A stretch of DNA of 64,000 nt. Origin: an uncultured Planctomycetota bacterium. GTDB lineage: Bacteria; Planctomycetota; PLA2; JAEUHO01. Below, one piece after another: positions 1,430-37,870 of the stretch. The position numbers and the translations under genes were made by a program. Under the pieces are notes generated by a model that saw only the letters and a list, made by a program, of their open reading frames with translations, was not told the origin of the DNA and did no database searches. Where the stretch lies: the NCBI GenBank assembly GCA_963772585.1, contig CAVYXV010000013.1:62555-126554 (forward strand), read 5' to 3'. How positions within the stretch are numbered: position 1 is the stretch's first letter; every line of letters begins with the position of its first letter.

Positions 1430-3379
1430 TCAGCCCCCGAGGGCGACGTCGGGAGAGCGCCGAGGGGCCCCCCGGGGCATGTCGGGCCATGCGCGGTCGG
1501 TGACGGAGAGCGGTCGGGCGAGAAGCCCCGCGAGGGCGCCGTCATCGAGGACCAGTCGCGAGCGCCCGAGGCGCGGACACGCGCCGCCCTCCTCCACCGC
1601 CTCTACCGACACCACGTGGGCCGCGGGGGCGTGCTCCGCTTCCAGGATGTCCAGATCGATGCCCGCCCCGGGCTCAGGCGTCCTCTCGCGATCGTGCAGG
1701 GCCTCGAACACGTCGTGCTCTCGGCGTCGCACGAGGAGTGCCGGTGCCGTGCCGATGCGCACCGGGATGTGGAGAAGCACCTCGCCGGCCGCCGCGTCGA
1801 TCCCGCGAAGCGACACCGTTACGAGCGGCGCCGCCTTGTTCTTCACGGAGAGCGGCGGCATCCGGTACCCGTACGCGTGCTCCTGGATGCGCTCCCAGGC
1901 GGCGGGTCCGGCGAGGACCTGCTCGGCGCAAGCGCGGCTCTCGATGCGCATGGCGGTGTTCACGGTGTCGCCGATGACCGTGTACTCCATCCGGCTTTCC
2001 GCGCCGATGTTCCCCGCGACGACGGGGCCGAACTCGAAGCCGACGCCCATGGCCAGCGGCCGCTCTCCGTCCTGGTGGCGCTCGCAGTTGAGCATCCACA
2101 GAGCGTTCTGCATCGCGAGGCCGGCGCGCCCGGCCTGGAGCGTGTGGTTCGCTTCCTCGAAGGGGATGCCCCAGAGCGCCATGATGCAGTCGCCGATGAA
2201 CTTGTCGATCGCGCCACCGGCATCGCGGATGCACGGCACCATGCGATCGAAGAAGGTGTTCATCATCGCGACGATGCCCTCGGGATGCATGCGCTCGGAG
2301 AGGCTCGTGAACCCCACGACATCCGCGAAGAGCGCCGTGCAGTCGCAGGCGGCGCCGCCGAGGTCGATCTTCACCTCTCCGTGGAGCGCCTGCTCCGCCA
2401 CCGGCGCGGGCAGGAAGCGCATGAGGTTCTGCTTGGTCAGGGCCTCCCGCTCGACCTGCTCGACGAGCGCGGCGTTGCTCATGCTGATGGCGATCTGTCG
2501 TCCGACGGCGGCGGCGAGTTGCATGTCGGCGACGCCGAAGGGCCGGAGGTGGTCCTTCGTGTCCACCACGAGCAGGCCGAGGGTGTCGTCGCGAACGATC
2601 AGGGGGATGACGAGCGCGCTCCAGATGTTGAGCGTGAGGAGGCTCCGCGCGGCCCACTCGGACTTGTCGGGCTCGCTCCGGTAGACGATGACCTCCTTCT
2701 TCTCGAGCGCGGCCCGACAGAGCGTCGAGGAGAGGGCCGGCGTCTTCGTCGTCTCCTCGCCCCGAAAGCGCACGGCGCGCGGCTGGAGGGCTTCGTAGGC
2801 ATCCCCCAGCATGACGAAGGCCCGTTCGGCCTGGGGAAAGACGTCCAGCAGGCTCGCGAGGGAACGGTCGAGCGCCTCGCCGAAGCTGGGGATGCTCGCG
2901 AGGCTCTCCGCCACCCCCATCACCGTGTCCAGGCGGCGCTGCATGGCGGGGACGGACATCTCCGGCGCGGGCCCGCCGGCCTCGGCCAGGATGGACATCG
3001 TCGCGTAGGGGAGCAGGTGGGGATCGGAGGGCGAGATGGAGAACGCGCCGTCGTCGGCCCGCTCTCCGGTGCCGGCTTCCTCCTCTTCCTCCTCGTCCTC
3101 GTCCACGATGCCGAGAACGGTATCCCCCACGCGCACGCGGTCGCCGTGCTTCAGGACGCCTCGTTCCACGCGCTCGCCGTCGAGGAGCGTGCCGTACGAC
3201 GAGCCCTCGTCCTTCACCACGAGGTCCAGACCCTCCATGAGGAAGACGGCGTGGCGGCGACTGACCTTGGAGTCCGCGAGCACGAGGTCGGAGGAGGAGA
3301 GACGACCGACGACGACCTCGCCCTGCACCTTCGCAGCGAGCCCCCGGTTGACGCCCTCGACGACCTGGATGCGATACAC
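1430..3379 (-). CDS. FHA domain - GAF domain - class III adenylate/guanylate cyclase
   Basis: FHA motifs (VYRIQVVEG...SRRHAVF...SSYGTLLDG), an acidic linker (DEDEEEEEE), a GAF block, and cyclase motifs (FADVVGFTSL, FIGDCIMALWG, TVIGDTVNTAMRIES). GTG start at 3379 chosen because GGAGG lies 7 nt upstream; the upstream 255 nt of the ORF are Arg/Pro-rich junk. Confidence 0.8.
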   Translation of the reverse strand: MYRIQVVEGVNRGLAAKVQGEVVVGRLSSSDLVLADSKVSRRHAVFLMEGLDLVVKDEGSSYGTLLDGERVERGVLKHGDRVRVGDTVLGIVDEDEEEEEEAGTGERADDGAFSISPSDPHLLPYATMSILAEAGGPAPEMSVPAMQRRLDTVMGVAESLASIPSFGEALDRSLASLLDVFPQAERAFVMLGDAYEALQPRAVRFRGEETTKTPALSSTLCRAALEKKEVIVYRSEPDKSEWAARSLLTLNIWSALVIPLIVRDDTLGLLVVDTKDHLRPFGVADMQLAAAVGRQIAISMSNAALVEQVEREALTKQNLMRFLPAPVAEQALHGEVKIDLGGAACDCTALFADVVGFTSLSERMHPEGIVAMMNTFFDRMVPCIRDAGGAIDKFIGDCIMALWGIPFEEANHTLQAGRAGLAMQNALWMLNCERHQDGERPLAMGVGFEFGPVVAGNIGAESRMEYTVIGDTVNTAMRIESRACAEQVLAGPAAWERIQEHAYGYRMPPLSVKNKAAPLVTVSLRGIDAAAGEVLLHIPVRIGTAPALLVRRREHDVFEALHDRERTPEPGAGIDLDILEAEHAPAAHVVSVEAVEEGGACPRLGRSRLVLDDGALAGLLARPLSVTDRAWPDMPRGAPRRSPDVALGG

Positions 3380-3544
3380 GCGCGTGCCTCCGGCGGAGGA
3401 GGATACCCGAGAGGGCGCGCGGACCGGTCGGCGCGCCGCCCGGCGTGATCTTCCTGGCCGGCACGACCCCCGAACGGGCCTTGCATCGCGCGGCCCGGGT
3501 CCGCATCTCGCGCAGGATGCGTCCAAGCGCGGAAACGGCGGACA

Positions 3545-4147
3545 ATGGCCGCGCCGATGGCCGAAGGCTCCGTCCACGACCGCATCGTCGCCCTCCTCGC
3601 CGACCGGGGCGTGCCGTTTCGGGAGACTCACCACGCCCCCGTGCGCACCTCCGAGGAGGCGGCCGCCGCCCGGGGAGAGCCCATGGCGATCGGGGGGAAG
3701 AGCCTGGTGCTGCGAGTGTCGGACAAGATCCCGCGCTCGGGCGACGGCGGGCCTCGGCGGACCGTGCAGGCCGGCAAGGAGAGGGCGTCGCGGGACGGCC
3801 CGCGCCTGCGGGACGAGTTGCGCACACGCCCCGCAGCCGAACCCCGCTTCGTTCTCTTCGTGCTACCCGCGGCGATGCGCCTTCCTTCCGCCGAAGCGCG
3901 AAGGGCGACCGGAGCCCGGCGCTCCCGGTTCGCGACGGAGAGGGAACTCCGGGCGCTCACCCACTGCGTGCCCGGCTGCGTCCCTCCCTTCGGGGAGCCG
4001 ATCCTGCCCCTCCCCCTCTACGCCCACCGCGCGCTGCTTCGAAACGACCGCATCGCCTTCACGCCCGGCGTCCGCGACGCGTCGATCCTCATGGCGACGG
4101 CGGACTGGGCGCGCCTGGCCCGCCCCCGCTGGTTCGGCGGCGGATAG
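3545..4147 (+). CDS. YbaK/ProX-type aminoacyl-tRNA deacylase (trans-editing domain protein)
   Basis: HHAPVRTSEEAA...GGKSLVL and CVPGCVPPFGEPI motifs typical of the YbaK/ProRS-associated editing domain. Confidence 0.7.
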   Translation: MAAPMAEGSVHDRIVALLADRGVPFRETHHAPVRTSEEAAAARGEPMAIGGKSLVLRVSDKIPRSGDGGPRRTVQAGKERASRDGPRLRDELRTRPAAEPRFVLFVLPAAMRLPSAEARRATGARRSRFATERELRALTHCVPGCVPPFGEPILPLPLYAHRALLRNDRIAFTPGVRDASILMATADWARLARPRWFGGG

Positions 4148-6097: not shown

Positions 6098-6338
6098 CGG
6101 TACGGAGCCTGGCTCCCGATCAAACCCTTCGACGGTACGGAGCCTGGCTCCCGATCCGACCTTTCGACGGTACGGAGCCTGGCTCCCGATCAGACCTTTT
6201 GCACCCCGACGGGCTCCCCCGAGCGCGTCGAGGGCCCTACTTCCGGGCGCTCCCGGCGAACCGTGTGCATCGGAGCCAGGCTCCGTAGCGAGGCTCCGTA
6301 GCGCGAAAAGGTGTGCCTGGGAGCCAGGCTCCGTACGG
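6098..6338. repeat. array of REP/BIME-like palindromic repeats: 3 direct 35-bp-period units then 2 inverted units
   Basis: CGGTACGGAGCCTGGCTCCCGATC at 6098, 6133 and 6168; the core GGAGCC-T-GGCTCC is a perfect palindrome. Inverted copies GGAGCCAGGCTCCGTA at 6272 and 6319. The array sits between convergent genes (hydrolase stop 6085, HEAT gene stop 6340). Confidence 0.8.
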
Positions 6339-6339
6339 A

Positions 6340-8199
6340 CTACGGCGCGCTTCGGCCTACGAAGGAGCGGCGACAGGACTCGAGGATCGGCGCCGCGACG
6401 GGGGAGGCGGCGGCGATCGCCTCGTCGAGGGCCTTCGCCGTGCCGGACCACCGCGGTCCGAGGGTCGCGAGCGCGACGTACAGCATCCCCTCCCCTCGTC
6501 CCTTCGAAGCGATGGACGCGGCGTAGCGCCCGAGGAGCGCGGGCACGCTCGTGGCGGCGCTGGACGGGCGGCGGGTCAGCGCGCTCGCGGCGAGCCAACG
6601 CGTCGCGTCGTCGTCGAGCGCGGCGACGAGGATCGGCACCAGCCGACTCTCCGGCTCCCCGATCTTGCAGAGCGCATTCAACGCCACCTGCCGCGTGGAC
6701 GCCTCCTCGTCGTGGAGGTGCCGCTCGATCAGCAAGAGGAGCCGGGACGAGTCGGCGGGAGCGTCCGTGGCCGTGAAGAAGCGCAAGGCCGAACGGACGT
6801 CCCCGTCGCCGTCGGGATTCTCGAGCCCCGCCAGGGCCAGGGCCGTCGCCTCCTCCGGGAGGAGCTTGGCGTCCAGGAGCGCCCACGCGACCCGCAGCTT
6901 GTCGCCCGCGTCCCCCTCCTTCGCCCTCGCGAGCAGGAACGCGACCCCGTCGGTTCCGGGGAAGCGGGCGAGGGCGTGCGCGGCGCTGCGGCCGACGACG
7001 GAGCTCTCGTAGTGCCCCTCCAACCACGTGAGCGCCTCCGGGGTGTCCGCCGGCGGGTCCATCCGTGCCACCTGGTCCACCGCCTTGCTCCGGAGGCGAT
7101 CCGAGTCGGACTCGGCGATCCGGAGGAGTACGTCCACCTGCGGACGGACGTCGGCGCCCGCGTCGAGCAACGCCTGGAAGGCGTAGAGGCGCTCGTCGTC
7201 GGTCTCGCCGTCGCGCGCGATGGCGACGAGCGCGGCGCGGCCGGCCTCGCCGAGCGCGGCCAGGGCCTGGCCGGCCCCGACCCCGTGCTCCTCCTGCAGG
7301 AGCCGGGCGAGGGCTCCCACCACGTACGGGGTCGCGACGCCCGACGCCCCCAGCGCCGCCGCCGCCGCGCGGCGGACGTGCGGGTCGTAGTCGTCGAGCA
7401 GAGGGACGACGTCGGGGACCAGGGGGGCACCCGCGGGCCCCAGCGTCGCGAGCGCGTCGAGCAGTCCCGGCCGCGCATCGGTGTCCTCGAGGATCGCGAC
7501 GCGGAGGCTCCTCAGCACGTCGGGAGTACCGCCGGCGATCGCGGCGAGCGCCCTGGCCGCCTGGGCGGGAAGACCCCGCAGCGGAGGCTGGAGTCGCTCC
7601 AGGAGGAAGGGGACGGCGTCGGCGGCCGCGGGACCGATCTGCTGCAGGCTGAAGAAGGCGACCGTACTGCTCCAACCGTAGGCACGGGTCATCGGGACGC
7701 GCTGGAGATACGCGACCAGCGACGCGGTGGCCGGGGCGGCGTCCGGCCCCATCGTCCGGAGCGCTTGCAGCACCATGCCGTCGCGGAGGTCGCTCTCCGT
7801 CCCCAACATGGCCGCCAGCACGCGCGCGCCGTCCGGCCCGAACGCGGCCAGCGCGAGCGTGAGTCGCTGGAGACCGATGCGGCGCCGGGCGAGCTCGGCG
7901 TCCGACAGCTTCGCGAGGGCGGCGAGGCGATCGAAGAGCGTGGGGTCCCGGGAGGCCCGCTCGCGAATCGTGGCCGCGCGGACGCCGTCGCTGCCGCGCC
8001 AATCGATGCCCTCCAGGAACGCCGCCACGTCGACTTCGCGCGGGGCGCCGACGAGCACGGGGGCTTGCCCGGGAACCGTCGGAGCCGCTTCGTCTTGCCC
8101 GGCGTAGGGCTCGGGCGAAGGGAAGAGGGACCGTCCCACCCCCACGAGCAGGCCCGCGGCGAGCAGCACGACCAGGAGGGGAAGGGCCCTTTGCGCCAC
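6340..8199 (-). CDS. HEAT/PBS-lyase repeat protein with N-terminal signal peptide
   Basis: Repeated DxxVRxAAAxALG-type HEAT units throughout. N-terminal hydrophobic leader. Lies 67 bp downstream of the kinase gene on the same strand. Confidence 0.7.
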   Translation of the reverse strand: MAQRALPLLVVLLAAGLLVGVGRSLFPSPEPYAGQDEAAPTVPGQAPVLVGAPREVDVAAFLEGIDWRGSDGVRAATIRERASRDPTLFDRLAALAKLSDAELARRRIGLQRLTLALAAFGPDGARVLAAMLGTESDLRDGMVLQALRTMGPDAAPATASLVAYLQRVPMTRAYGWSSTVAFFSLQQIGPAAADAVPFLLERLQPPLRGLPAQAARALAAIAGGTPDVLRSLRVAILEDTDARPGLLDALATLGPAGAPLVPDVVPLLDDYDPHVRRAAAAALGASGVATPYVVGALARLLQEEHGVGAGQALAALGEAGRAALVAIARDGETDDERLYAFQALLDAGADVRPQVDVLLRIAESDSDRLRSKAVDQVARMDPPADTPEALTWLEGHYESSVVGRSAAHALARFPGTDGVAFLLARAKEGDAGDKLRVAWALLDAKLLPEEATALALAGLENPDGDGDVRSALRFFTATDAPADSSRLLLLIERHLHDEEASTRQVALNALCKIGEPESRLVPILVAALDDDATRWLAASALTRRPSSAATSVPALLGRYAASIASKGRGEGMLYVALATLGPRWSGTAKALDEAIAAASPVAAPILESCRRSFVGRSAP

Positions 8200-8265: not shown

Positions 8266-11200
8266 CTACGACCCGGTGCCCTCCCGTCGCCGCCACGCCG
8301 CGAGGACGGCGCGGTGGATCGGGACGTTCTCCACGACCGAGTCGCGGTACGCGGCCGGAACGCGGGCGGCGAGAGCCCTCAGCTCCTGGTGGGCCGCTTC
8401 CAGGTATCCGATGTCGTGGGTCGCGCGCCACGCCTGGAAATCGGCCTCGATCTCGCTGATCGCGGTGACGGGGCCGTCGCGCGCGGCCACGAGCGCGCGG
8501 ATCGTCTCCGGCGTCGCGTGCGAGAGACCCGCCTCCCGGAGCCGGAGGATCCTCGCGGCGGGGTCGTCGGGCTCCGCGAGCGCCAGTGCCTCGTCGAACA
8601 GCGAACGGGCCCCCGCGGTGTCGCCCGCCTCCTCGGCGACCTCGGCCCGCACGGCGAGGGCGGGAGAGAAGAGTCCCAGGCGCCTGGCCTCCGGGTGCTC
8701 CGTCACCTCCTGCGCCAGGTGGTCGGCGCGGTCGAGGTTCCCGCGCACGAGATGGATCTTCGCGAGACGCAGCAGGACGTAGGCGGTGAGCCGCGGATCG
8801 CCGACCTCGAGCGCGATCCGCCGGCAGGCCTCCAACGCGTCCTGCGCGCCGTCCAGGTCGCCGAGCAGGCGGCGGACGTGCCCGAGATTCAGGAGCACGT
8901 TCGCCTCGCCCTGCCGGTTTCCGATCTCGCGCGACATGCCGAGCGCGCGTTCGTACGTCTCGAGCGCCTCCGCGTAGCCTCCCTGCGAGAGCAGCGAACC
9001 GCCGAGGTTCCCCAGCAGCATGGCCTCCTGGTAGCGGTCGCCGATGCTGCGGGCGAGGATGAGCGCCCGCTCGTAGCAGTCCCGCGCGGACAGGTACTCC
9101 CGCCGGTACGTGTGGACGTTGGCGATGTTTCCGAGTGCGGTCACCTCGGAGGCGGGGTCGCCGATCTCGCGGGCGATCTCGCGGTGGCGTCGGTGATTCG
9201 TGAGCGCCTCGTCGAGCCGGCCGCGGGTACGGAGGACGTTTCCGAGACTCCCCAACGCCGCGGCCTCGCCCGCGCGGTCGGCCCCACGGCGGGCCACGGC
9301 GAGCGCCTCCTCGAGGAGGCGCTCGCTCTCGTCGAGGCGTCCCAGGTAGTAGAGCGCGACGCCGAGGTGGAGGGCCGCGGCGCGGAGGGGGGAATCGCCG
9401 CCGGCTTCGCGCGCGAGGGAGAGCGCCTGGCGGAGCGTCTCCTCCGCCCCGGCGTAGTCGGACACCCGGATCCGGAACCAGCCGAGGTCCGTCAGGACCT
9501 CGGCCTGGAGCGACGGGTCGCCCGCCTTCCGGGCCAGGGCGAGCGCCCTTCGGAGCGCCGATTCCTGGGCGGCTCGCCGGCCGAGATGGCCGCAGCCGGC
9601 CGCCTCGCGCAGCAGGAGGCGGGTCCTCCGCTCCCCGCGCACGAGCCCGGGGACGGCGAGCGCCCGCTCGATCCGGTCCACCACCGCCTCGGTCCGGTAG
9701 GAGTAGCCCAGGTGGTCCAGGGCCCGATCGAGGAACGGCAAGGCGTCCTCCGGTCGCGCGCCCCGGAGATGGTGCGTGACCAGGAACACGCAGGTCCTCG
9801 GGTCGACCTCCTCGACGGGCTTCTCCCCCACCCCCTCCCGTTCGGCCAGGGCGGAGGCAAGAGCCGTGTGGTAGGCGACGCGAAGCGCCTGGGGAAGGGC
9901 GTCGTAGAGGACCTCCTGCACCTGGTGGTGGTCGAACCGGAGCAGCCGGCCCGCGCCGCGAACGAGGCCGCTTCGCCGCTCCACCTCCGCCAGCGCCTGG
10001 AGGACCAGGATCGGCTTCGACTCCAGGACGCGGGCGACGAGGTCGGGGTCGAACTCGAAGCCCTGCACCGCGGCGACGTCCAGGATCGCGCGGTCCGGGC
10101 GCTCGAGGTCCCTGGTGCGGGCCTGCACGAGATCGCGCACGGCGGACGGAACCTCGATCTCCCCGATCTCCTGCGTCTCCAGGTACGTCCCGTCGTCGGA
10201 GCGGGAGAGGTACCCCCCCTCCTCGAGGCCGCGGACCATCTCGAAGACGAAGAAGGGGACGCCGTCCGACTTGAAGGCGATCCGACCGCCCAACCGATCC
10301 GCGAGCGTGGCGCTCGCGAAGGCCTCGCGGAGGACCTCGATCACCTCGCGAGGGGACAGGCGGTCCAGGGCGAGGCGGCGGCAGTGCGGTAGCGCCGTGA
10401 GACGCGCGAGCTCGTCGTCGGCACGCCCCGGGCGCGTCGTCACGAGGAGGAGCACGGGCGCGGCGGCGATGGCCCTTGCCAGCGAGACGAAGAGGGCACG
10501 GCTCTCGGGCGGAGCGAAGTGGAGGTCCTCGACCACCCAGAGGACGGGCTTCTCGCGCGCGAGGGCGCGGACCAGTTGCACCATCAGGGTGTGCGGCGCG
10601 TCGCCCTCCAGTCGCCGCGCGCCGGGTGGGAGGTCGCCGTGGCGGACGAGGGCCGCGAAACCGGGGACGAGCTCCGGCATCGCATCGAGATAGGGTCGCA
10701 GCGCCTGGTCGAGCGTCGCGTCCCCGAACCGTTCGACGATCGCGTCGGAGAACGCGCCCAGGCCGGACGTCGGAAGATAGGCGCCGTAGAGGACGTGCGC
10801 ATCGACGTCGCCGACGCGCTCGATCGCCGCATCCACGAAGCGGGTCTTCCCGATGCCCGCCTCGCCCTCGAGCACGACGACGCGGCCATGACCACGCGTC
10901 GCCTCCTTCCACCACCCGGCGAAGGCGGCGAGCTCCGCGTCCCGGCCGCGGACCGCCGTGTCCCGCCGCACGGGAATCTCCGGCCGAACGACCTGGGAGG
11001 CGAGCAGCGCCTTCTCCCGCCCGACCCACCACCGGGAGCGCTCTCCCTCGGCGAGGACCCTCGCCAGCATCGAGGCGGTCGAGAAGCGGTCCTGGGGACG
11101 CTTGGCGAGGAGCGTCGCGATCACCTCGGAGAGGAACACGGACACCGCCGGGCGGCAGTGGTGCACGGGCGACGGCGTCTCCCGGAGATGCGCGTGGATC

Positions 11201-12021
11201 GTCGTCGCGATGTCCGTCCTGCGAAACGGATTGCCGCCGGTGGCCATCTCGTAGAGGACCACGCCCAGGGCGTACAGGTCGGCGGAGGGCCCCGCGTCTT
11301 CGTGGCGGAACTGCTCGGGCGCAGCGTAGTGGACCGAGCCGGCGAAGTGCCCCGGCGCCGTCAGACCAGAGGTTCCGTCCACCAGCCGGGCCACGCCGAG
11401 GTCCATGATGCAGACGCGCTGCGAGTCGGTGACGAGCACGTTCTCGGGCTTCAGATCGCGGTGGACGATGCCCTGGGCGTGGATCGCCGTGAGGCCCGAG
11501 GCGATCTGACGCGCGAGCTCGCGGAGGAGCAGCTCGGGGACGCACCCCAGATCGAGGAGCATCCGTCGGAGCGTGCGGCCCTCGACGAACTCCATCGCGA
11601 TGTAGAGGACGCTCCTCCCGTCGAGACGGGACTCGCCGGCGTCGAGCGTCCGGACCACGTGTTCGTCGCAAACCTTCCGGCCGATGTCCGCCTCGCGGAG
11701 GAACCGGCGCACGAAGGCGGGCTGGTCCACGAGGTGCGGGTGGATGACCTTGAGGGCGACGACGCGGCCCGGCGGCATGCCGCCGGCGGGTTCCACCACG
11801 GCGGCGCGGTAGACGGTCCCCATCCCGCCCGATCCGATCTCGGCCTCGATGCGATAGGGACCCAACCGGTCCAACGCCCGCCTCCGCGCCTCGCGCAGGG
11901 ATCGCGCGCACGGATCATGCCGGATCGCGCCCCGGATCGCGACCCGGATCGCGACGTCCGGGCTGCGGCGTGGGTCGGAGTGGGAGGTGCCCGCGGCCGA
12001 GGAGCCGCGGGCACCGGACAT
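8266..12021 (-). CDS. STAND-type Ser/Thr protein kinase (kinase - P-loop NTPase - TPR repeats)
   Basis: Kinase subdomains (GSGGMGTVY, VALKVI, HRDLKPENVL, DLGVAR, APE). Walker A (LEGEAGIGKTRF). Long C-terminal TPR array. Start is uncertain: the first ATG is at 12021, and the ORF reaches 12144 from a GTG. Confidence 0.85.
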   Translation of the reverse strand: MSGARGSSAAGTSHSDPRRSPDVAIRVAIRGAIRHDPCARSLREARRRALDRLGPYRIEAEIGSGGMGTVYRAAVVEPAGGMPPGRVVALKVIHPHLVDQPAFVRRFLREADIGRKVCDEHVVRTLDAGESRLDGRSVLYIAMEFVEGRTLRRMLLDLGCVPELLLRELARQIASGLTAIHAQGIVHRDLKPENVLVTDSQRVCIMDLGVARLVDGTSGLTAPGHFAGSVHYAAPEQFRHEDAGPSADLYALGVVLYEMATGGNPFRRTDIATTIHAHLRETPSPVHHCRPAVSVFLSEVIATLLAKRPQDRFSTASMLARVLAEGERSRWWVGREKALLASQVVRPEIPVRRDTAVRGRDAELAAFAGWWKEATRGHGRVVVLEGEAGIGKTRFVDAAIERVGDVDAHVLYGAYLPTSGLGAFSDAIVERFGDATLDQALRPYLDAMPELVPGFAALVRHGDLPPGARRLEGDAPHTLMVQLVRALAREKPVLWVVEDLHFAPPESRALFVSLARAIAAAPVLLLVTTRPGRADDELARLTALPHCRRLALDRLSPREVIEVLREAFASATLADRLGGRIAFKSDGVPFFVFEMVRGLEEGGYLSRSDDGTYLETQEIGEIEVPSAVRDLVQARTRDLERPDRAILDVAAVQGFEFDPDLVARVLESKPILVLQALAEVERRSGLVRGAGRLLRFDHHQVQEVLYDALPQALRVAYHTALASALAEREGVGEKPVEEVDPRTCVFLVTHHLRGARPEDALPFLDRALDHLGYSYRTEAVVDRIERALAVPGLVRGERRTRLLLREAAGCGHLGRRAAQESALRRALALARKAGDPSLQAEVLTDLGWFRIRVSDYAGAEETLRQALSLAREAGGDSPLRAAALHLGVALYYLGRLDESERLLEEALAVARRGADRAGEAAALGSLGNVLRTRGRLDEALTNHRRHREIAREIGDPASEVTALGNIANVHTYRREYLSARDCYERALILARSIGDRYQEAMLLGNLGGSLLSQGGYAEALETYERALGMSREIGNRQGEANVLLNLGHVRRLLGDLDGAQDALEACRRIALEVGDPRLTAYVLLRLAKIHLVRGNLDRADHLAQEVTEHPEARRLGLFSPALAVRAEVAEEAGDTAGARSLFDEALALAEPDDPAARILRLREAGLSHATPETIRALVAARDGPVTAISEIEADFQAWRATHDIGYLEAAHQELRALAARVPAAYRDSVVENVPIHRAVLAAWRRREGTGS
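11920..11955. repeat. 12-bp x3 tandem repeat (CCGGATCGCGMC) in the kinase 5' region
   Basis: ccggatcgcgcc / ccggatcgcgac / ccggatcgcgac; in the kinase ORF frame it reads AIRVAIRGAIR. Confidence 0.7.
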
Positions 12022-12311
12022 TCCAAGCCACACCGGGATCGGGACGGGCCGTATCCTCGCCGGCCGTATCCCAGGGCACCGTTCGCTTGCGGCCGAAGGC
12101 GCCCTCCCTTCCCCCGAACGGAAGGCGAGGCCGAAACCGGACACCCGCCGCCCCGGTCACTAGGCAGAAAGTCCCGATTGCTCCCGCCGTTCCCCGCGCA
12201 TGCGGCCCGGCTTGCGGGGGTTCCCGACCCCGGATCGGGCGCCGTCGCGAGTGGTATGCTCGCCACCCGATGTTCGCCATGGACTTCGGGATGCACGACC
12301 GGGGGGGTCGA

Positions 12312-12646
12312 CTGAGAGAACGTGAAGAAATCGAAGTCCGGGGCTTCGGCCGGCTGCGGGACCACGATGCTGCGTTGCTCGTCGTCAGCGACCCACGGTG
12401 GGGTCGCCTCCTCCTCGCGCCTTGCCTCGTGGCCCCTCGCTCGGCCTCGGGCCCTCGGCCCATTTCTTCACGCCCTCTGAGAGAACGTGAAGAAATCGAA
12501 GTCCGGGGCTTCGGCCGGCTGCGGGACCACGATGCTGCGTTGCTCGTCGTCAGCGACCCACGGTGGGGTCGCCTCCTCCTCGCGCCTTGCCTCGTGGCCC
12601 CTCGCTCGGCCTCGGGCCCTCGGCCCCTTCCTTCACAGCCTCTGAG
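12312..12646. repeat. 165-bp tandem duplication (2.03 near-identical copies) in a divergent intergenic region
   Basis: Copy 1 at 12312-12476, copy 2 at 12477-12641, and the first 5 nt of a third. The two copies differ only in the last ~15 nt. Open in several frames (ORF 11970..12719 reads the same 55-aa peptide twice). A related copy lies at 31464-31590. Confidence 0.9.
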
Positions 12647-12761
12647 ATGGCCGCACTCATCCGGGGCGGTGCGCGACCGGGGCAGGACCTCGCCACCGGG
12701 CGTCGCGCTACCGCCGTGAAGCACGCTCCACGCCTCGCAACCGCGAAGGGACAGCCGCACC

Positions 12762-13940
12762 ATGATGACGCCGCTCCACATGCAGGACCTCGAAGCACTT
12801 CTCGCGCACCGCGAAGGTCCCTGCGTCTCCATCTACATGCCGACGCATCGCACGGGTCACGAGATGCAGCAGGACACGATCCGTCTCAAGAACCTCCTCA
12901 AGGCCTCGGAACGCGAGCTCCAGGGCGTGGCAATTCGGGAGACGTCGGCGCAGGAGATCCTGAAGCCGGCCCGTGACCTGTTGAACGAGGGACCGTTCTG
13001 GGAGAACCTCGGGGACGGGCTCGCCGTGTTCCTCGCACCGGGGTTCTCGCGCATCTACCGCCTTCCCGCGCCCTTCAGCGAGCTCCACGTCGTCGCCGGC
13101 GCATTCCACGTGAAGCGGCTCCTCCCGATCGTGGGCGGCGACGGGCGCTTCTACGTCCTGGCGCTCAGCCAGAACGAAGTGCGCCTGCTACGGGGCACGC
13201 GATTCCACGTGGAGGAACTGGAGCCCGACGGCATGCCCAAGAGCCTGCGGGAAGCGCTCTGGATGGACCACCCCGAGAAGAGCCTCCAGTTCCACACGGG
13301 CTCCTCCGCCGCCACGACGGGCGACGGAGGCTCCCGGCGAGCGGCCGTCTTCCACGGGCAGGGCGGGCCCGCCGCCATCGAGAAGTCGAAGCTGGAGCGG
13401 TACTTCCGCCGCGTCGACGACGGCCTGAGGGAGCACCTGGCCAACGGCAAGGACCCCCTCGTCCTCGCCGGCGTGGATCACTACTTCCCGATCTACCGGG
13501 AGATCAGCAAGGTCCCGACCCTGGAGAAGGAGGGCGTCCCCGGCAACCCGGAGAAACTCAGCATGAGGGAGCTCCACGACCGCGCCTGGGCCATCGTCGA
13601 ACCCCAGTTCCGGAAGGCCGAGACCGACGCGATCGACCGCTACCGGGCGCACGCCGGCCAGGGCAAGACGGCGGCGGGCCTCGAAGCCGTCCTCCCGGCC
13701 GCGCACCATGGTCGGGTGGACACGCTGCTGGTCGCCGCCGGTCGCCAGCAGTGGGGCGCGTGGGTCGCCGGGAGTGGCGCCGACGGGAGCGTCGTCATCC
13801 ACGATCACTACGAGCAGGGCGACCGCGACCTGCTCGACGTCGCGGCGGCCGCCACCTTGAAGTCGGGCGGTCGGGTCTTCCCCCTGGCGGTGGAACGGAT
13901 TCCCGACGGCGCGGATGCGCTGGCCATCCTCCGCTACTGA
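12762..13940 (+). CDS. eRF1/Pelota-like (bacterial aeRF1-type, baeRF family) protein
   Basis: ATG-ATG start with AAGGGA 10 nt upstream. Central segment AVFHGQGGPAAIEKSKLERYFRRV resembles the eRF1 GGQ loop (HGRGGQSALRFARLR). C-terminal GRVDTLLVAAG matches the eRF1/Dom34 domain-3 signature VETLLV. Confidence 0.65.
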   Translation: MMTPLHMQDLEALLAHREGPCVSIYMPTHRTGHEMQQDTIRLKNLLKASERELQGVAIRETSAQEILKPARDLLNEGPFWENLGDGLAVFLAPGFSRIYRLPAPFSELHVVAGAFHVKRLLPIVGGDGRFYVLALSQNEVRLLRGTRFHVEELEPDGMPKSLREALWMDHPEKSLQFHTGSSAATTGDGGSRRAAVFHGQGGPAAIEKSKLERYFRRVDDGLREHLANGKDPLVLAGVDHYFPIYREISKVPTLEKEGVPGNPEKLSMRELHDRAWAIVEPQFRKAETDAIDRYRAHAGQGKTAAGLEAVLPAAHHGRVDTLLVAAGRQQWGAWVAGSGADGSVVIHDHYEQGDRDLLDVAAAATLKSGGRVFPLAVERIPDGADALAILRY

Positions 13941-14007: not shown

Positions 14008-14928
14008 ATGCGCAGAAGCACGCTCCTGCTCCTCGTCGCGGGCCTCTTCGCCCTCGGTGCCTGCGGCGATCGGGGAAGCCCCGCGACAGGACGGACGCGA
14101 CGGGACGGCCCGCCCGTCGTCTACACCGTGAATTACCCGCTCGCCTACTTCGCCGAGCGCATCGGGGGAAAGGCCGTGGACGTCCACTTCCCGGTCCCCG
14201 CGGACATGGATCCGGCCTGGTGGACGCCGACGCCGGAGGAGATCGCCAGGTTCCAGGAGGCCGACCTGATCCTCCTGAACGGCGCGACGTACGCCAAGTG
14301 GGTCCTGAAGGCCTCGCTCCCGGCGTCCCGCGTCGTCGACACCTCCGCGAGCGTGGCGGACCGCTACATCCAGATGAAGGGTGTGATCACCCACTCGCAC
14401 GGACCGGAAGGGAAGCACACCCACAAGGGAACGGCCTTCACCACGTGGCTCGATCCGAACATCGCCGTGGTCCAGGCGAAAGCCGTGCTGGAGGCGCTCG
14501 TGAAGCTCGTGCCGGCCGAGACGAAGACCTTCGAAGACCGTTTCGACGGGATCGAAAGGGACCTGAGGGATGTCGCCGACGCCATCCGCATGGCGGTGGC
14601 GCAGGATCCGAGTCGTCCCGTGCTCTTCTCCCATCCCGTCTACCAGTACCTCGAACGAGCCTTCTCGATGAACGGTCGCTCCGTCCACTGGGAGTCGAAC
14701 GAGGAACCGGACGAGAACATGTGGAAGGAGCTCGACGCGCTCCTGGCCGAGCATCCCGCGAAGGTCATGATCTGGGAGAGCCCGCCGCTCCCCGACGTGG
14801 TGACGGAACTCGAGCACCGGGAAGTGAAGAGCGTCGTCTTCGACCCGGGCGGCAACAAGCCGAGCACCGGAGATTTCCTCACGCTGATGAAGGCGGGCGC
14901 GGAGGCGCTCCACGAGGCCTACCAGTAG
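14008..14928 (+). CDS. metal (Zn/Mn) ABC transporter substrate-binding lipoprotein, ZnuA/TroA family
   Basis: GGAGGA RBS, lipobox LFALGAC, His-rich metal-site loop (HSHGPEGKHTHKG), overall TroA-like motifs. Confidence 0.8.
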   Translation: MRRSTLLLLVAGLFALGACGDRGSPATGRTRRDGPPVVYTVNYPLAYFAERIGGKAVDVHFPVPADMDPAWWTPTPEEIARFQEADLILLNGATYAKWVLKASLPASRVVDTSASVADRYIQMKGVITHSHGPEGKHTHKGTAFTTWLDPNIAVVQAKAVLEALVKLVPAETKTFEDRFDGIERDLRDVADAIRMAVAQDPSRPVLFSHPVYQYLERAFSMNGRSVHWESNEEPDENMWKELDALLAEHPAKVMIWESPPLPDVVTELEHREVKSVVFDPGGNKPSTGDFLTLMKAGAEALHEAYQ

Positions 14929-14956
14929 GGCGTACGAGCAGGGCATACGAGCACGC

Positions 14957-15727
14957 GTGGCCGGGGTTCCGCTCGTTCGCTGGCTCTCCCGCGCGAACGT
15001 CGCGTCGCGCCGGGAGGCGCGGGACCTCGTTCGGGCCGGACGCGTCGCGGTGAACGGCCGCGTGCAGACGGACGGCGCCGTCCGCGTGGACGCGGCCCTC
15101 GACCGCGTGACGGTGGACGGACGCCTCGTCCGCGCCCCCGACCCCGAACGGGACCTCGAGTGGTGGGCCGTGAACAAGCCGCGCGGCGTCGTCGCCACCA
15201 CCGCCGACCCGGAGGGCCGCCCGACCGTCATGGACATCGTGCTCCCGCCCCGCGCCCCGGGACTCGCGCCCGTGGGGCGGCTGGACATGGCGAGCGCGGG
15301 CCTGCTTCTCCTCACCAACGACTCGCTGCTCGCGGCTGCGCTCCTCCAGCCGGAGCACCACGTGCCGAGGGTCTACAGGGTGAAGGCGCGCGGGCACCCC
15401 TCGGCCGAAACGCTGCGGCGGTGGCGGGAGGACACCCTGGTGGTCGGCACCCTCCGGCTGGGGCCGATGGCGGTTGCGATCGAACGCGAGGCTCCCCGTT
15501 CGACGTGGCTCGAGATCGCGTTGACGGAGGGGAAGAACCGTCAGATCCGACGCCGCCTCGAGGCCGAGGGACACCCCGTGGAGATCCTCGTCCGCGTGGC
15601 CTTCGGTCCGATCCGCCTGGGAACGCTGGAGAAGGGGGCGGCGCGCCGCCTCGGCGCGGACGAGGTCACCGCGCTCGCGACGGCCTGCGGTGGCGTCTCC
15701 AGGGCGCCCCGTACCCCCCGGTCGTGA
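14957..15727 (+). CDS. pseudouridine synthase, RsuA/RluB family (S4 domain + PseudoU_synth_2)
   Basis: GTG start. S4-like N-terminus (ARDLVRAGRVAVNGR). Catalytic region GRLDMASAGLLLLTND. KNRQIRR motif. Confidence 0.85.
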   Translation: MAGVPLVRWLSRANVASRREARDLVRAGRVAVNGRVQTDGAVRVDAALDRVTVDGRLVRAPDPERDLEWWAVNKPRGVVATTADPEGRPTVMDIVLPPRAPGLAPVGRLDMASAGLLLLTNDSLLAAALLQPEHHVPRVYRVKARGHPSAETLRRWREDTLVVGTLRLGPMAVAIEREAPRSTWLEIALTEGKNRQIRRRLEAEGHPVEILVRVAFGPIRLGTLEKGAARRLGADEVTALATACGGVSRAPRTPRS

Positions 15728-26882: not shown

Positions 26883-27332
26883 TCAGTCGGGACGGTAGGC
26901 GCCGTAGCGCCGGAGATTCGTGCTCGCCGTGGCGGCCTGGGCGCTGAGCAGGGCGCGCACGCGCCGCGCGAGGGGACGGTTCAGGGCGTCCAGGGTCCGG
27001 GCGACCACCTCGCGCTCCGAAGCGACCAGCTCGTCGAGCAGGGCTTGGGTGTCCGCTTGCGCCGCCGTCTCGAAGGCGCCGAGCCAGGGCTGGTGGAAGG
27101 CGCCGGCCGGGACCCCTTCGGGCTGCGGCAGGCCGCCGAGGCTCTCGATGGCCTCGCTGAGTTGCCGGACGACCGCCCGGCGCTCGCTCTCGGACGCCAG
27201 GAACGCCAGCGACAGACGGCGGTCGTGGGCGCACTCGCGGGCTCGGCCGTACGCCCGCTCACCGGCCTTGGAGAGTTGCAGAAGGTCTTGCAGGACGTCG
27301 AGGGTCTCTTGCGTGGTCAGCCGGGTCATCAT
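26883..27332 (-). CDS. DUF2383 (PA2169-family) four-helix-bundle ferritin-like protein
   Basis: ATG-ATG at 27332/27329 with GGAGG upstream. Conserved LxxLLQLSKDGExxY and RRxxxAxxLxxLG motifs of the TIGR02284 family. Paralogue at 37427-37870. Confidence 0.7.
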   Translation of the reverse strand: MMTRLTTQETLDVLQDLLQLSKAGERAYGRARECAHDRRLSLAFLASESERRAVVRQLSEAIESLGGLPQPEGVPAGAFHQPWLGAFETAAQADTQALLDELVASEREVVARTLDALNRPLARRVRALLSAQAATASTNLRRYGAYRPD

Positions 27333-27446
27333 GGTCGCGGGCGCCTCCGTGAATGCGCCGGCGAGTCGCCGCCGCAAGGGCACGTCGTCCTCTGCATGCT
27401 CGTCCCGCACGACGCACACGCCGTGCCGCCTCGCCCGCATCATCAT

Positions 27447-29261: not shown

Positions 29262-29310
29262 GGCCACGAACGGACGTCCCGTCGCGCGCTTCGCGGGGAG
29301 TGCAGGCACG
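29262..29310 (+). promoter_or_regulatory. copy (b) of the recurrent GG-N10-GC motif plus an inverted partner, upstream of the sigma-54 activator gene
   Basis: ccacgaacGGacgtcccgtcGCgcgcttcgcggggagtgcaggc, then acggccgttcgtg as the inverted half. Confidence 0.35.
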
Positions 29311-29449
29311 ACGCCAACGGCCGTTCGTGCATAGTGCGGGCTGGATGCGGGATTCCCCCACGCCAACCTCTGGACGGCGGCTTGCGTACGACACCACGGG
29401 GCCACCCGCGCCCGTGCGCGCCGGTGTACTCTCGCGCTCCTGGGATTGG

Positions 29450-30889
<1,440 letters not shown>

Positions 30890-31013
30890 CCAGGCCACCC
30901 GCACGCGTTCGACGCTTGCGCGCGACGACCTCCCGAGCGCGTGCGACCCGGGTGGGATGCGACCGCCCGGTGCCCGCGTCCCACCACGGAGCCCTGCGCG
31001 GCGGGGGACAATG

Positions 31014-31032
31014 GGCCCGCTCATCGCAGTCG
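31014..31032 (+). promoter_or_regulatory. candidate sigma-54 promoter for the EncFtn-encapsulin operon
   Basis: tGGGCCCgctcaTCGCA matches the -24 GG / -12 GC elements with exact 10-nt spacing. The -12 GC lies 31 nt upstream of ATG 31061. A sigma-54 activator gene is immediately upstream. Confidence 0.4.
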
Positions 31033-31060
31033 AGGGAGCGCGTCCCAAGGAGGTCCCGAC

Positions 31061-31447
31061 ATGTCGGAAAGCAGCGGCGGTCTTCACGAGGCGAAGAGCG
31101 ATCTCGGCCCGGAGACCGTGGACCGGCACCGGGCGATCGCGTCCCTGATGGAAGAACTCCAGGCGATCGACTGGTACGAGCAACGCGTCCAGGCGACGCA
31201 GGACGAAACGCTCGGCGCGATCCTCGCGCACAACCGGGACGAGGAGAAGGAGCACGCCGCCATGCTGCTGGAGTGGCTTCGGCGCCATGATCCCGCCCTG
31301 GACGGCGAGTTGAGGACCTACCTCTTCCGCGACGGAGACATCACGACCTTGGAAGGGGCGGGAGCCGAGGGGGCCGACGACACGGGCAGTACGCCGCCCC
31401 GAACGACCCCGGACGGTTCGCTGGGCATCGGGGACATGGGAGGATGA
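31061..31447 (+). CDS. encapsulated ferritin-like cargo protein (EncFtn) with a C-terminal encapsulin targeting peptide
   Basis: AAGGAGG RBS. EncFtn ferroxidase motif (IDWYEQRV...ILAHNRDEEKEHAAMLLEWLRR). C-terminal ...DGSLGIGDMGG resembles the SLGIGxL cargo-loading peptide. Confidence 0.85.
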   Translation: MSESSGGLHEAKSDLGPETVDRHRAIASLMEELQAIDWYEQRVQATQDETLGAILAHNRDEEKEHAAMLLEWLRRHDPALDGELRTYLFRDGDITTLEGAGAEGADDTGSTPPRTTPDGSLGIGDMGG

Positions 31448-31463
31448 GAAGGAACCGGATGCA

Positions 31464-31590
31464 GTGTTTCGGCCGGCTGCGGAGCCACGACGCGCCTTGC
31501 CCCTTCGACGGGCTCACGGCGGCTGCGCCGCTCGCGGCTCCTCGCGAGGCCTCGGACCCTCGCCCCATTCCCTCAGACCCTCCGAGAGGA
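31464..31590. repeat. third member of the 165-bp repeat family, between encFtn and the encapsulin shell gene
   Basis: Shares ttcggccggctgcgg.(g/a)ccacga at its 5' end and cctcgg.ccctcg.ccc.tt.c.tca...ccctc.gagag.a at its 3' end with the tandem units at 12312-12646. Its 3' end supplies the shell-gene RBS (gagagga). Confidence 0.6.
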
Positions 31591-31597
31591 GACGACG

Positions 31598-37426: not shown

Positions 37427-37870
37427 TCAGGCGCGGTGCGCCGTGAGCCCCTCGAATCGGCGCAGATTCGCCTTTGCTCCGGCCGCCTGGCTCGTGACGA
37501 GGCCGCGAATGTCGTCGCCGAGAGGCGCCGCCATGGCCTCGTCGTAGTGCTTCACCGCGGCACGTTCTGCACGGACGATCTCCTCGAGCAGCGTCTTGTC
37601 GGCGCTCCCGGAGAGCGTGCTGCGTGCCTCCAGCCACGTCCTGCCAAAGGCCCCCGGCACCGTCCCTCGCTCCGCCGGTCTCCCGCCCAGCTCCTCGATC
37701 TTGTCCACGAGTTGTTGCGCCGCGATCGCGCACGACTCGAGACTCGTCTCGAACGCCGCCTTCAGCGTCTCGTCGTCGGTGATCTCCTTGGCCCGCCCGA
37801 AGGTCTCTTCGCCGTCCTTCGAAACGTGGAGCAGATCGCCCAGGAGACTGATGGTCGCCGCCTCGTCCAT
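37427..37870 (-). CDS. DUF2383 (PA2169-family) four-helix-bundle protein, second paralogue
   Basis: LLGDLLHVSKDGEETFGRA, RAERAAVKHYDEA; same family as 26883-27332. Confidence 0.7.
   Translation of the reverse strand: MDEAATISLLGDLLHVSKDGEETFGRAKEITDDETLKAAFETSLESCAIAAQQLVDKIEELGGRPAERGTVPGAFGRTWLEARSTLSGSADKTLLEEIVRAERAAVKHYDEAMAAPLGDDIRGLVTSQAAGAKANLRRFEGLTAHRA

What the first reader, a model, noticed from the sequence alone, without database searches (positions are those of the whole stretch)
12762..13940. Bacterial eRF1/Pelota-like (baeRF) protein with a variant GGQ loop
The protein aligns to the three-domain aeRF1/Dom34 fold. Its central loop reads HGQGGP instead of GGQ, and its C-terminus has the VDTLLV signature. 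Bacteria normally use RF1/RF2, so baeRF proteins are poorly characterised and have been proposed to act in ribosome rescue or as translation-targeting effectors in conflict systems. It is divergently transcribed from the STAND kinase across the 165-bp tandem repeat.
Basis: partly seen in the sequence, partly recalled or inferred. Interest (0 to 1): 0.6.

Follow-up and report, generated by a model that had tools for sequence, protein, structure and literature searches.

The report
Balon-type ribosome hibernation factor homologue
This gene encodes a bacterial relative of the archaeal/eukaryotic release factor eRF1 that belongs to the Balon family of ribosome "hibernation" proteins, so it is an ordinary member of a family that is now understood, not a new release factor or defence effector.

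Summary
The ORF at 12762-13940 (+, 392 aa) is real and is a three-domain baeRF protein (Pfam baeRF_family3, E=2.4e-48). Its closest characterised relatives are the Balon ribosome hibernation factors. The family profile matches P. urativorans Balon end to end (E=4e-37). A confident AlphaFold model (pLDDT 89.5) ranks ribosome-bound Balon and Msmeg1130 first (E~2e-21, TM 0.60-0.70), ahead of aRF1/eRF1 (TM~0.42) and Pelota.

The "HGQGGP" loop is present and lies in the GGQ-equivalent loop of the middle domain. It is not a GGQ variant. Across 255 homologues the conserved core is F-H-G-(H/Q)-G. The position that best aligns with eRF1 Gln185 is Gly/Ala/Val/Pro. It looks like a relic of eRF1's H-G-R-G-G-Q without the catalytic Gln.

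The protein meets the published Balon criteria: no NIKS, no GGQ, a conserved N-domain loop and a C-domain beta-hairpin. It scores below NCBI's equivalog cut-off (148 vs 330 bits), so it belongs to a separate, very large subfamily with no confirmed experimental study.

The kinase adjacency is not conserved in any of 80 homologue loci. The 165-bp repeat is a dispersed hairpin element. I found no support for a conflict-system role. Most likely function: a non-catalytic A-site-binding hibernation factor.

The parts
12762..13940 (+). CDS of the Balon-like baeRF protein (392 aa; alternative start at 12765 gives the 391-aa public copy)
12762..13136 (+). N-terminal domain (residues 1-125), the counterpart of the decoding-centre-binding domain of Balon/aeRF1; lacks NIKS
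   Evidence: Full-length profile alignment to Balon; model pLDDT above 90 here; no NIKS
12840..12881 (+). Conserved N-domain loop PTHRTGHEMQQDTI (residues 27-40). It aligns with Balon's KTHREHPANDQDPI, the loop that holds Balon's only HP dipeptide
13137..13661 (+). Middle (RNase H-like, PTC-facing) domain, residues 126-300
   Evidence: Pfam baeRF_family3 covers residues 129-318; model
13221..13367 (+). Long loop (residues 154-202) between strand 150-153 and helix 203-226. This is the topological counterpart of the eRF1 GGQ loop and of Balon's lasso loop. Its length is constrained in the family (IQR 44-46 residues)
13314..13334 (+). TTGDGGS (residues 185-191), identical to the 7-mer in the corresponding loop of P. 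urativorans Balon
13350..13370 (+). FHGQGGP (residues 197-203). The family motif is F-H-G-(H/Q)-G. It is probably a relic of eRF1's K-H-G-R-G-G-Q, with Pro at the Gln185-equivalent position
13662..13937 (+). C-terminal (Pelota/eRF1 domain-3-like) domain, residues 301-392, containing VDTLLV (13716-13733)
13746..13805 (+). Two-strand beta-hairpin insertion (residues 329-348, with invariant W331-G332). It lies where Balon carries its EF-Tu-binding beta-hairpin and aeRF1 carries its insert
   Evidence: Model strands 331-335 and 343-347, pLDDT 86-91; conservation; PMC10901736 supplement; PMC6514570
14008..14928 (+). ZnuA-family lipoprotein gene 67 bp downstream on the same strand. It is possibly co-transcribed, and the adjacency is shared with the closest relative L001
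12312..12647 (.). Two tandem copies of a 165-bp hairpin element in the upstream intergenic region. It is context, not shown to be part of the gene's function

Best explanation
The gene encodes a non-catalytic, A-site-binding ribosome hibernation factor of the Balon (baeRF) family.

[quoted passage not shown] - It has no catalytic Gln, so it cannot release the nascent chain.
- The C-domain with its beta-hairpin faces the factor-binding site (EF-Tu in Psychrobacter).

Shown here: family membership, fold, presence or absence of motifs, and conservation. Inferred: ribosome binding, the contacts, and the physiological trigger.
For: Pfam baeRF_family3 at E=2.4e-48. The NCBIfam 'AOC03_06830 family ribosome hibernation factor' model (Balon) matches over its full length at E=4e-43, and all 30 sampled subfamily members hit it. 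The subfamily profile matches Balon chain 8rd8_B at E=4e-37, covering profile 7-384 and chain 3-369. The AF2 model has pLDDT 89.5. Its top Foldseek hits are ribosome-bound Balon (E=1.9e-21, TM 0.61/0.65) and Msmeg1130 (TM 0.67/0.70), well ahead of aRF1/eRF1 (TM~0.42) and Pelota. There is no GGQ or NIKS. The Gln185-equivalent column holds no Gln in 255 homologues. A C-domain beta-hairpin is present. These are the three criteria the Balon paper uses for homologues. Recurrent neighbours elsewhere are stress- or translation-related: UspA and GAPDH, MscS, and EF-P/EpmA/EpmB. This fits the stress-operon pattern reported in PMC10901736. Burroughs & Aravind predicted Gln-less baeRFs to be non-catalytic A-site inhibitors (PMC6514570).
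Against: There are no experimental data for this protein, and I could not confirm any for its subfamily. The score is below NCBI's equivalog cut-off (148 vs 330 bits), and identity to Balon is only 22-27%. The PTC loop is about 12 residues longer than Balon's and has a conserved His-Gly tip that solved Balons lack, so the PTC contacts may differ. The literal HP dipeptide of Balon is G32-H33 here. No HPF/RaiA gene was found among the window ORFs scanned. The neighbourhood in this genome is not an obvious stress operon.
Confidence: 0.8

Rival explanations
1. It is a catalytically active aeRF1-type peptidyl-tRNA hydrolase (a release or rescue factor). The HGQGG loop would function as a modified GGQ motif in the peptidyl-transferase centre.
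For: The loop sits at the GGQ-equivalent position. The best local alignment places F-H-G-Q-G-G-P on eRF1 K-H-G-R-G-G-Q. Unlike most baeRF families, which have variable loops (PMC6514570), this subfamily's loop is constrained in length (IQR 44-46) and its tip is highly conserved (H198 in 232/255, G199 in 250/255). Burroughs & Aravind associate that pattern with catalytic families.
Against: No Gln is conserved at or next to the eRF1 Gln185-equivalent column, which is G/A/V/P/E. The Gln of 'HGQ' is His in 171/255 sequences. A Gly-Gly pair at 201-202 occurs in only 42/255. The eRF1 alignment is statistically weak (E=0.014, probability 3%). Every solved relative is non-catalytic and keeps the PTC inert (PMC10901736).
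Confidence: 0.08
2. It is a translation-targeting effector or sensor module of a conflict (anti-phage) system, working with the adjacent Ser/Thr kinase-STAND-TPR protein.
For: It is arranged divergently with a 1292-aa Pkinase+AAA_16+TPR protein. That protein's kinase domain matches PADLOC PD-T4-6 and mad6 kinase models. Burroughs & Aravind suggested conflict-driven origins for baeRFs. A Rubrobacter plasmid copy sits next to a CopG-PIN pair.
Against: The baeRF protein has no PADLOC match. The PADLOC kinase hits cover only the generic kinase domain. The kinase is absent from all 80 homologue loci, and the closest relative has an ABC exporter in that position. No neighbour is shared by more than 14 of 81 loci. 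The family is very large (11,446 representatives at 50% clustering) and rare on phages (3/50,697) and plasmids (19/72,556). The surrounding genes are housekeeping or signalling genes.
Confidence: 0.04
3. It is a Pelota/Dom34-like, non-catalytic ribosome rescue or recycling factor. It would recognise stalled or damaged ribosomes and promote subunit splitting or reactivation instead of storing ribosomes.
For: It has the same fold as Pelota (Foldseek ~1e-6). It is linked to EF-P/EpmA/EpmB in Syntrophales. The Synechocystis preprint discusses a possible reactivation analogy between Balon and RRF.
Against: Fold and sequence are much closer to Balon than to Pelota. I know of no ABCE1-like splitting partner in bacteria (own knowledge, not tested here). 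The Balon paper states that Balon lacks Pelota's loop A; I did not check this protein for that loop.
Confidence: 0.08

Closest known systems
Balon (Psychrobacter urativorans AOC03_06830; PDB 8rd8, 8rdv, 8rdw), ribosome hibernation factor (PMC10901736)
   Same: Three-domain aeRF1-like architecture of similar length (392 vs 369 aa). End-to-end profile match (E=4e-37) and best fold match (E~2e-21, TM 0.60-0.65). No NIKS and no GGQ. Shared T-H-R...Q-D-P-I N-domain loop. Identical TTGDGGS in the PTC-facing loop. C-domain beta-hairpin and C-terminal R-Y.
   Different: Only 22-27% identity, and below the NCBIfam equivalog cut-off (148 vs 330 bits). The PTC loop is about 12 residues longer and ends in a conserved F-H-G-(H/Q)-G that Balon lacks. 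Balon's H27-P28 dipeptide corresponds to G32-H33 here. No RaiA gene is adjacent.
Mycobacterial Balon homologues Msmeg1130 and Rv2629 (PDB 8v9j, 8v9l, 8v9k)
   Same: Same fold, with the highest whole-chain TM-scores (0.65-0.70). Both lack GGQ and NIKS and bind the A site.
   Different: Sequence similarity is marginal (NCBIfam E=8e-5 and 5e-6 over partial stretches; PDB E=0.15). The mycobacterial proteins have larger C-domain insertions.
Pfam baeRF_family3 (PF18845) and baeRF_family7 (PF18849), from Burroughs & Aravind 2019 (PMC6514570)
   Same: Scores far above the gathering thresholds (165 and 152 bits vs 31.5 and 27.2). Public homologues are annotated 'baeRF7 domain-containing protein'.
   Different: None; this is the family-level classification. 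These Pfam families carry no experimentally defined function of their own.
Archaeal/eukaryotic class-I release factor aRF1/eRF1
   Same: Common fold (Foldseek E 4e-14 to 1e-12). VDTLLV matches VKTLLI in domain 3. The H-G-x-G at the loop tip probably corresponds to eRF1 H180-G181-R182-G183.
   Different: No NIKS, no GGQ and no catalytic Gln. There is an insertion of about 34 residues in the middle-domain loop. TM is only ~0.42. Profile-profile comparison is not significant.

Membership tests
baeRF-1 clade (Pfam baeRF_family3/7) | Match to the curated Pfam HMM above its gathering score | tested here: met
   PF18845 165.1 bits (cut-off 31.5) and PF18849 151.7 bits (cut-off 27.2)
baeRF-1 clade (Pfam baeRF_family3/7) | Three-domain aeRF1 architecture with a two-strand insert in the Pelota-like C-domain | tested here: met
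   AF2 model with pLDDT 89.5, strands 331-335 and 343-347; Foldseek hits to aRF1, eRF1 and Pelota; definition in PMC6514570
Balon family of ribosome hibernation factors (sensu PMC10901736) | Absence of the NIKS motif, with an extended N-domain loop that binds the decoding centre (the HP motif in Balon) | tested here: inconclusive
   NIKS is absent. The homologous loop is present and is the most conserved N-domain segment (P27 238, T28 234, R30 200, G32 222 of 255). Balon's H27-P28 aligns with G32-H33, so the dipeptide itself is not kept. Contact with the decoding centre cannot be tested here.
Balon family of ribosome hibernation factors (sensu PMC10901736) | Absence of the GGQ motif in the middle domain | tested here: met
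   The protein contains no GGQ. No Gln is conserved at the Gln185-equivalent column in 255 homologues.
Balon family of ribosome hibernation factors (sensu PMC10901736) | Characteristic beta-hairpin insertion in the EF-Tu-binding C-terminal domain | tested here: met
   Hairpin at residues 329-348 in the model; invariant W331-G332; criterion taken from the supplement
Balon family of ribosome hibernation factors (sensu PMC10901736) | Binds the ribosomal A site of idle ribosomes and inhibits translation | not testable with these tools
   Needs biochemistry or cryo-EM
Balon family of ribosome hibernation factors (sensu PMC10901736) | The genome also encodes RaiA/HPF, and the gene is often in a stress-response operon | tested here: inconclusive
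   No HPF was found among the window ORFs scanned, but only 64 kb of the genome is available. Homologue loci show UspA, MscS and EF-P neighbours in some lineages.
NCBIfam NF052287, AOC03_06830 family RHF (equivalog of P. urativorans Balon) | Whole-protein score at or above the curated cut-off of 330 bits | tested here: not met
   148.3 bits. All 30 sampled subfamily members hit the model; the best E-value is 1.5e-52. I therefore treat this protein as a distinct subfamily and not as the Balon equivalog.
aeRF1 class-I release factors | GGQ motif with catalytic Gln, and a NIKS-type stop-codon recognition motif | tested here: not met
   Neither motif is present; the column statistics agree
Known anti-phage defence systems (PADLOC) | Match of the protein to a defence-system HMM, and conserved linkage to partner genes | tested here: not met
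   No PADLOC match; the kinase is not linked in any of 80 loci

The most novel reading that the evidence does not exclude
The F-H-G-(H/Q)-G subfamily may be a mechanistically distinct branch of Balon-like factors. It has at least 5,460 representatives at 50% clustering, and I found no confirmed experimental study of it. Its longer, length-constrained loop keeps the H-G-x-G half of the ancestral eRF1 H-G-R-G-G-Q motif. That loop might reach further into the peptidyl-transferase centre than Balon's lasso loop. It might also perform chemistry there, for example His-assisted peptidyl-tRNA hydrolysis. If so, this would be a bacterial aeRF1-type release or rescue factor and not a passive plug.
Probability: 0.08. 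Interest if true: 0.75.

Novelty: new member of a known kind. Interest (0 to 1): 0.3.

Why it matters
The practical gain is better annotation. This protein and its relatives are labelled 'hypothetical protein' or 'baeRF7 domain-containing' in public records, including RefSeq for Rubrobacter. They can instead be read as Balon-type hibernation factor homologues.

The modest scientific interest lies in the subfamily. It is very large and spans many phyla (Planctomycetota, Desulfobacterota, Gemmatimonadota, Cyanobacteria, Chloroflexota, Acidobacteriota, Actinomycetota). It keeps a conserved relic of the eRF1 catalytic loop that the solved Balons have lost. That makes it a useful intermediate for working out how a release factor was converted into a hibernation factor, and a sensible next target for cryo-EM.

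Tried and rejected
(1) Profile-profile alignment of the family (255 sequences) against an eRF1 profile (90 sequences) was not significant (probability about 1%). Only a low-stringency (mact 0.01) local alignment of the M domain places HGxG on HGRGGQ (E=0.014). The residue-level equivalence is therefore an inference, not a demonstration.

(2) I tried to collect archaeal aRF1 sequences by searching with the A. pernix fragment printed. No candidates were found. The eRF1 search returned only closely related eukaryotic sequences.

(3) The look-up of encoding contigs found no record for the exact protein, and the listing of cluster members gave no names. The source organism is therefore inferred only from the nearest homologues: Planctomycetota MAGs at 63-65% identity, one of them with shared ZnuA and GT synteny.

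(4) I tried to establish whether the Synechocystis Balon seen on hibernating ribosomes (bioRxiv 10.64898/2026.07.03.736309) belongs to this subfamily. The gene is not named in the text and no supplements are held. Cyanobacterial members of this subfamily are 21-25% identical to Psychrobacter Balon, against the 30% reported for the Synechocystis protein. This remains unresolved.

(5) An Rfam search of the upstream region and repeat found nothing real.

(6) The sigma-70 promoter scan found no sites. The terminator-like hits inside the repeat have weak T-tracts.

(7) I considered the kinase as a conserved partner and rejected it.

Full report
**1. Observation.** The ORF 12762..13940 on the + strand (392 aa) exists. 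Its composition is typical of coding sequence in this ~71% GC window (GC3 0.91, GC2 0.44). It is identical to a public protein that starts one codon later (P0001, 391 aa). A 1292-aa Pkinase + AAA_16 + TPR gene lies divergently at 8266..12144. The 617-bp gap holds a 165-bp repeat in 2.0 copies at 97% identity (12312-12647).

**2. What the protein is.** Pfam assigns it to the bacterial aeRF1 clade: baeRF_family3 at 165 bits (E=2.4e-48), then families 7, 6, 11 and 8. The best NCBIfam model is 'AOC03_06830 family ribosome hibernation factor', which is the Balon of Psychrobacter urativorans. It matches over its whole length (protein 11-392 against model 2-361; E=4e-43). The score is 148 bits against an equivalog cut-off of 330. 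The two mycobacterial RHF models give weak partial hits.

Against PDB sequences, the single protein finds Balon chain 8rd8_B at E=2e-13. A 30-sequence family profile finds it at E=4e-37 and aligns end to end (profile 7-384, chain 3-369).

A first AlphaFold model from 30 sequences was poor in the N-domain (pLDDT 71.7). A 120-sequence alignment gave pLDDT 89.5 and pTM 0.82, with only the 171-200 loop at low confidence. Foldseek against PDB with this model ranks the hits as follows:
- Ribosome-bound Balon: 8rdv_B E=1.9e-21, TM 0.61/0.65
- Msmeg1130: TM 0.65-0.70
- aRF1 4af1: E=4e-14, TM 0.42
- eRF1: E about 1e-12
- Rv2629
- Pelota: E about 1e-6

Its specific relatives are the Balon hibernation factors described in PMC10901736.

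**3. The 'variant GGQ' loop.** In the model the middle domain has three strands (130-135, 140-145, 150-153). A 49-residue loop with two short helices follows, then a long helix (203-226) and strand 233-237. This is the topology of the eRF1 middle domain, in which the GGQ loop precedes the long helix. The family-to-Balon alignment places the loop on Balon's loop before the helix 'NSYLKEFFNQVDK'. Balon is about 12 residues shorter exactly where this family has '...raavfHGhg'. The Balon paper says that Balon lacks GGQ and instead bears a lasso-like loop around A2602. The window protein also carries TTGDGGS (185-191), identical to the Balon 7-mer. HGQGGP therefore does lie in the GGQ-equivalent loop.

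It is not a GGQ variant. Column counts in 255 homologues are:
- Position 197: F in 208
- Position 198: H in 232
- Position 199: G in 250
- Position 200: H in 171, Q in 64
- Position 201: G in 228
- Position 202: V 85, A 51, G 42
- Position 203: G 104, A 60, V 17, P 13, E 13

I verified my recalled human eRF1 sequence against 1dt9_A (437/437 identical) and tried to align the families. Profile-profile comparison is not significant overall. The best local path through the middle domain (E=0.014, probability 3%) places F-H-G-Q-G-G-P-A-A-I on K-H-G-R-G-G-Q-S-A-L, and PLVLAGV on GLVLAGS. On that reading H198-G199 correspond to eRF1 H180-G181, and P203 corresponds to the catalytic Q185.

The motif is therefore best read as a relic of H-G-R-G-G-Q that has lost the Gln. 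The Gln in this protein's 'HGQ' occupies a column that is His in two-thirds of relatives. 25 of 255 sequences contain a GGQ somewhere in the protein; I did not locate these, and it is not a conserved motif.

One feature is unusual. Burroughs & Aravind describe most baeRF families as having poorly conserved loops of unconstrained length. In this subfamily the loop length is narrow (IQR 44-46 residues; H198 to K208 is 11 residues across the interquartile range) and the tip is conserved.

**4. Other Balon features.** The Balon paper's supplement lists three criteria for homologues: no NIKS plus an extended N-domain loop (the HP motif in Balon), no GGQ, and an insertion in the EF-Tu-binding C-domain.
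- NIKS and GGQ are absent.
- The loop after the first strand (PTHRTGHEMQQDTI, residues 27-40) is the most conserved part of the N-domain. It aligns with Balon KTHREHPANDQDPI, which contains Balon's only HP dipeptide. That dipeptide corresponds to G32-H33 here. The loop is conserved but the dipeptide is not.
- A two-strand hairpin (331-335 and 343-347, with invariant W331-G332) sits in the C-domain.

**5. Distribution and context.** The subfamily is very large. The full-library profile search found 11,446 representatives at 50% clustering with E<=1e-3 and 5,460 with E<=1e-30. GTDB species genomes contain more than 531 relatives across Planctomycetota, Desulfobacterota, Gemmatimonadota, Cyanobacteria, Chloroflexota, Acidobacteriota, Firmicutes and others. 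The nearest are Planctomycetota MAGs at 63-65% identity, so the window probably comes from a planctomycete.

Clustering the flanking ORFs of 80 loci plus the window shows no universal neighbour; the largest real cluster covers 14 of 81 loci. The recurrent neighbours are lineage-specific:
- UspA and GAPDH in delta-proteobacterial MAGs
- an MscS-like channel 4-6 bp downstream in cyanobacteria
- EF-P, EpmA and EpmB arranged divergently in Syntrophales
- an ABC transporter in Gemmatimonadota

The window's kinase has no counterpart in any of these loci. The closest relative (L001) has an ABC exporter in the divergent position. ZnuA, and further on the GT2 gene, are syntenic with L001.

The baeRF protein has no PADLOC match. 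The kinase's PADLOC hits cover only its generic kinase domain. The family occurs in 3 of 50,697 phage records (short, unannotated fragments) and 19 of 72,556 plasmids, mostly large replicons. The window's other genes are signalling, hydrolase and housekeeping genes, and no HPF was found. These results argue against a conflict-system role and against the kinase as a functional partner.

**6. The repeat.** On the - strand each 165-bp unit folds into one long imperfect hairpin (-96.3 kcal/mol, z=-5.8, 0 of 200 shuffles as stable). The + strand is much weaker (z=-2.4). There is no Rfam match. A degenerate third copy lies in the same orientation at about 31435-31585, between an EncFtn-like cargo gene and an encapsulin shell gene. 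It is therefore a dispersed intergenic hairpin element (REP- or MITE-like), not a feature specific to this locus.

**7. Mechanism and verdict.** The best-supported reading (confidence about 0.8) is a non-catalytic A-site-binding hibernation factor that works like Balon. Fold, family, motif content and conservation are shown here. Ribosome binding, the individual contacts and the physiological trigger are inferred.

Rival readings:
- Catalytic release or rescue factor using the HGxG loop: about 0.08
- Pelota-like rescue or recycling factor: about 0.08
- Conflict effector paired with the kinase: about 0.04

The protein is not the NCBI equivalog of Psychrobacter Balon because it fails the score cut-off. 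It meets the published family-level criteria, so I file it as a new member of a known kind. It belongs to a large, conserved subfamily for which I could confirm no experimental study. A Synechocystis Balon has been seen on hibernating ribosomes with PTC and decoding-centre contacts unlike Psychrobacter's, but I could not establish whether it belongs to this subfamily.

Interest is modest at 0.3. The one point worth following up is the conserved HGxG relic loop.

Noticed in passing
window 12312-12647, and about 31435-31585: A 165-bp element is present as two tandem copies upstream of the baeRF gene. A degenerate third copy lies between an EncFtn-like cargo gene (31061-31447) and an encapsulin shell gene (31598-32404). 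Each unit forms a long hairpin that is much more stable on the - strand (-96.3 kcal/mol, z=-5.8) than on the + strand (z=-2.4). The unit has inverted ends, GTGAAGAAAT and ATTTCTTCAC. There is no Rfam match, and the element is absent from the 80 homologue loci. It looks like a REP- or MITE-like dispersed intergenic element.
   Followed up: partly
window 29300-32404: An encapsulin locus: a sigma-54-dependent activator (29300-30889), an EncFtn-like cargo gene (31061-31447) and a Linocin_M18 encapsulin shell gene (31598-32404). Two DUF2383 genes lie nearby (26883-27446 and 37427-37870, both on the - strand).
   Followed up: partly
window 14008-15727: A ZnuA-family gene with a lipoprotein-like N-terminus (judged by eye from the translation), and no adjacent ZnuB/ZnuC genes, lies 67 bp downstream of the baeRF gene. 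An S4-domain rRNA pseudouridine synthase gene follows 28 bp further on. All three are on the same strand, and no terminator was predicted between them. The baeRF-ZnuA adjacency recurs in the closest relative, L001. A link to metal limitation, as in zinc-dependent ribosome hibernation in mycobacteria, is speculative.
   Followed up: partly
loci L038, L043, L048, L054, L067, L068, L076: In Syntrophales MAGs the homologue lies divergently next to a cluster of EpmB (KamA-like), EF-P and EpmA. This translation-factor neighbourhood is not mentioned in the parts of the Balon paper I read.
   Followed up: no
loci L010, L015, L021, L053, L055: In filamentous cyanobacteria an MscS-like mechanosensitive channel gene starts 4-6 bp after the homologue's stop codon, which suggests co-transcription with an osmotic-stress gene.
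   Followed up: no
L081 (Rubrobacter radiotolerans plasmid 2, NZ_CP007516.1), 6192-8155: A 49%-identical homologue is annotated 'hypothetical protein' in RefSeq. It lies immediately downstream of a CopG-PIN (VapBC-like) toxin-antitoxin pair on a 150-kb plasmid.
   Followed up: no
window 1430-3634 (- strand) and 8266-12144 (- strand): Two large signalling proteins flank the region: an FHA-GAF-adenylate/guanylate cyclase, and a Ser/Thr kinase-AAA_16-TPR (STAND-like) protein. The kinase ORF as listed has a 96-residue N-terminal extension before the kinase domain, so its true start may be further downstream.
   Followed up: no
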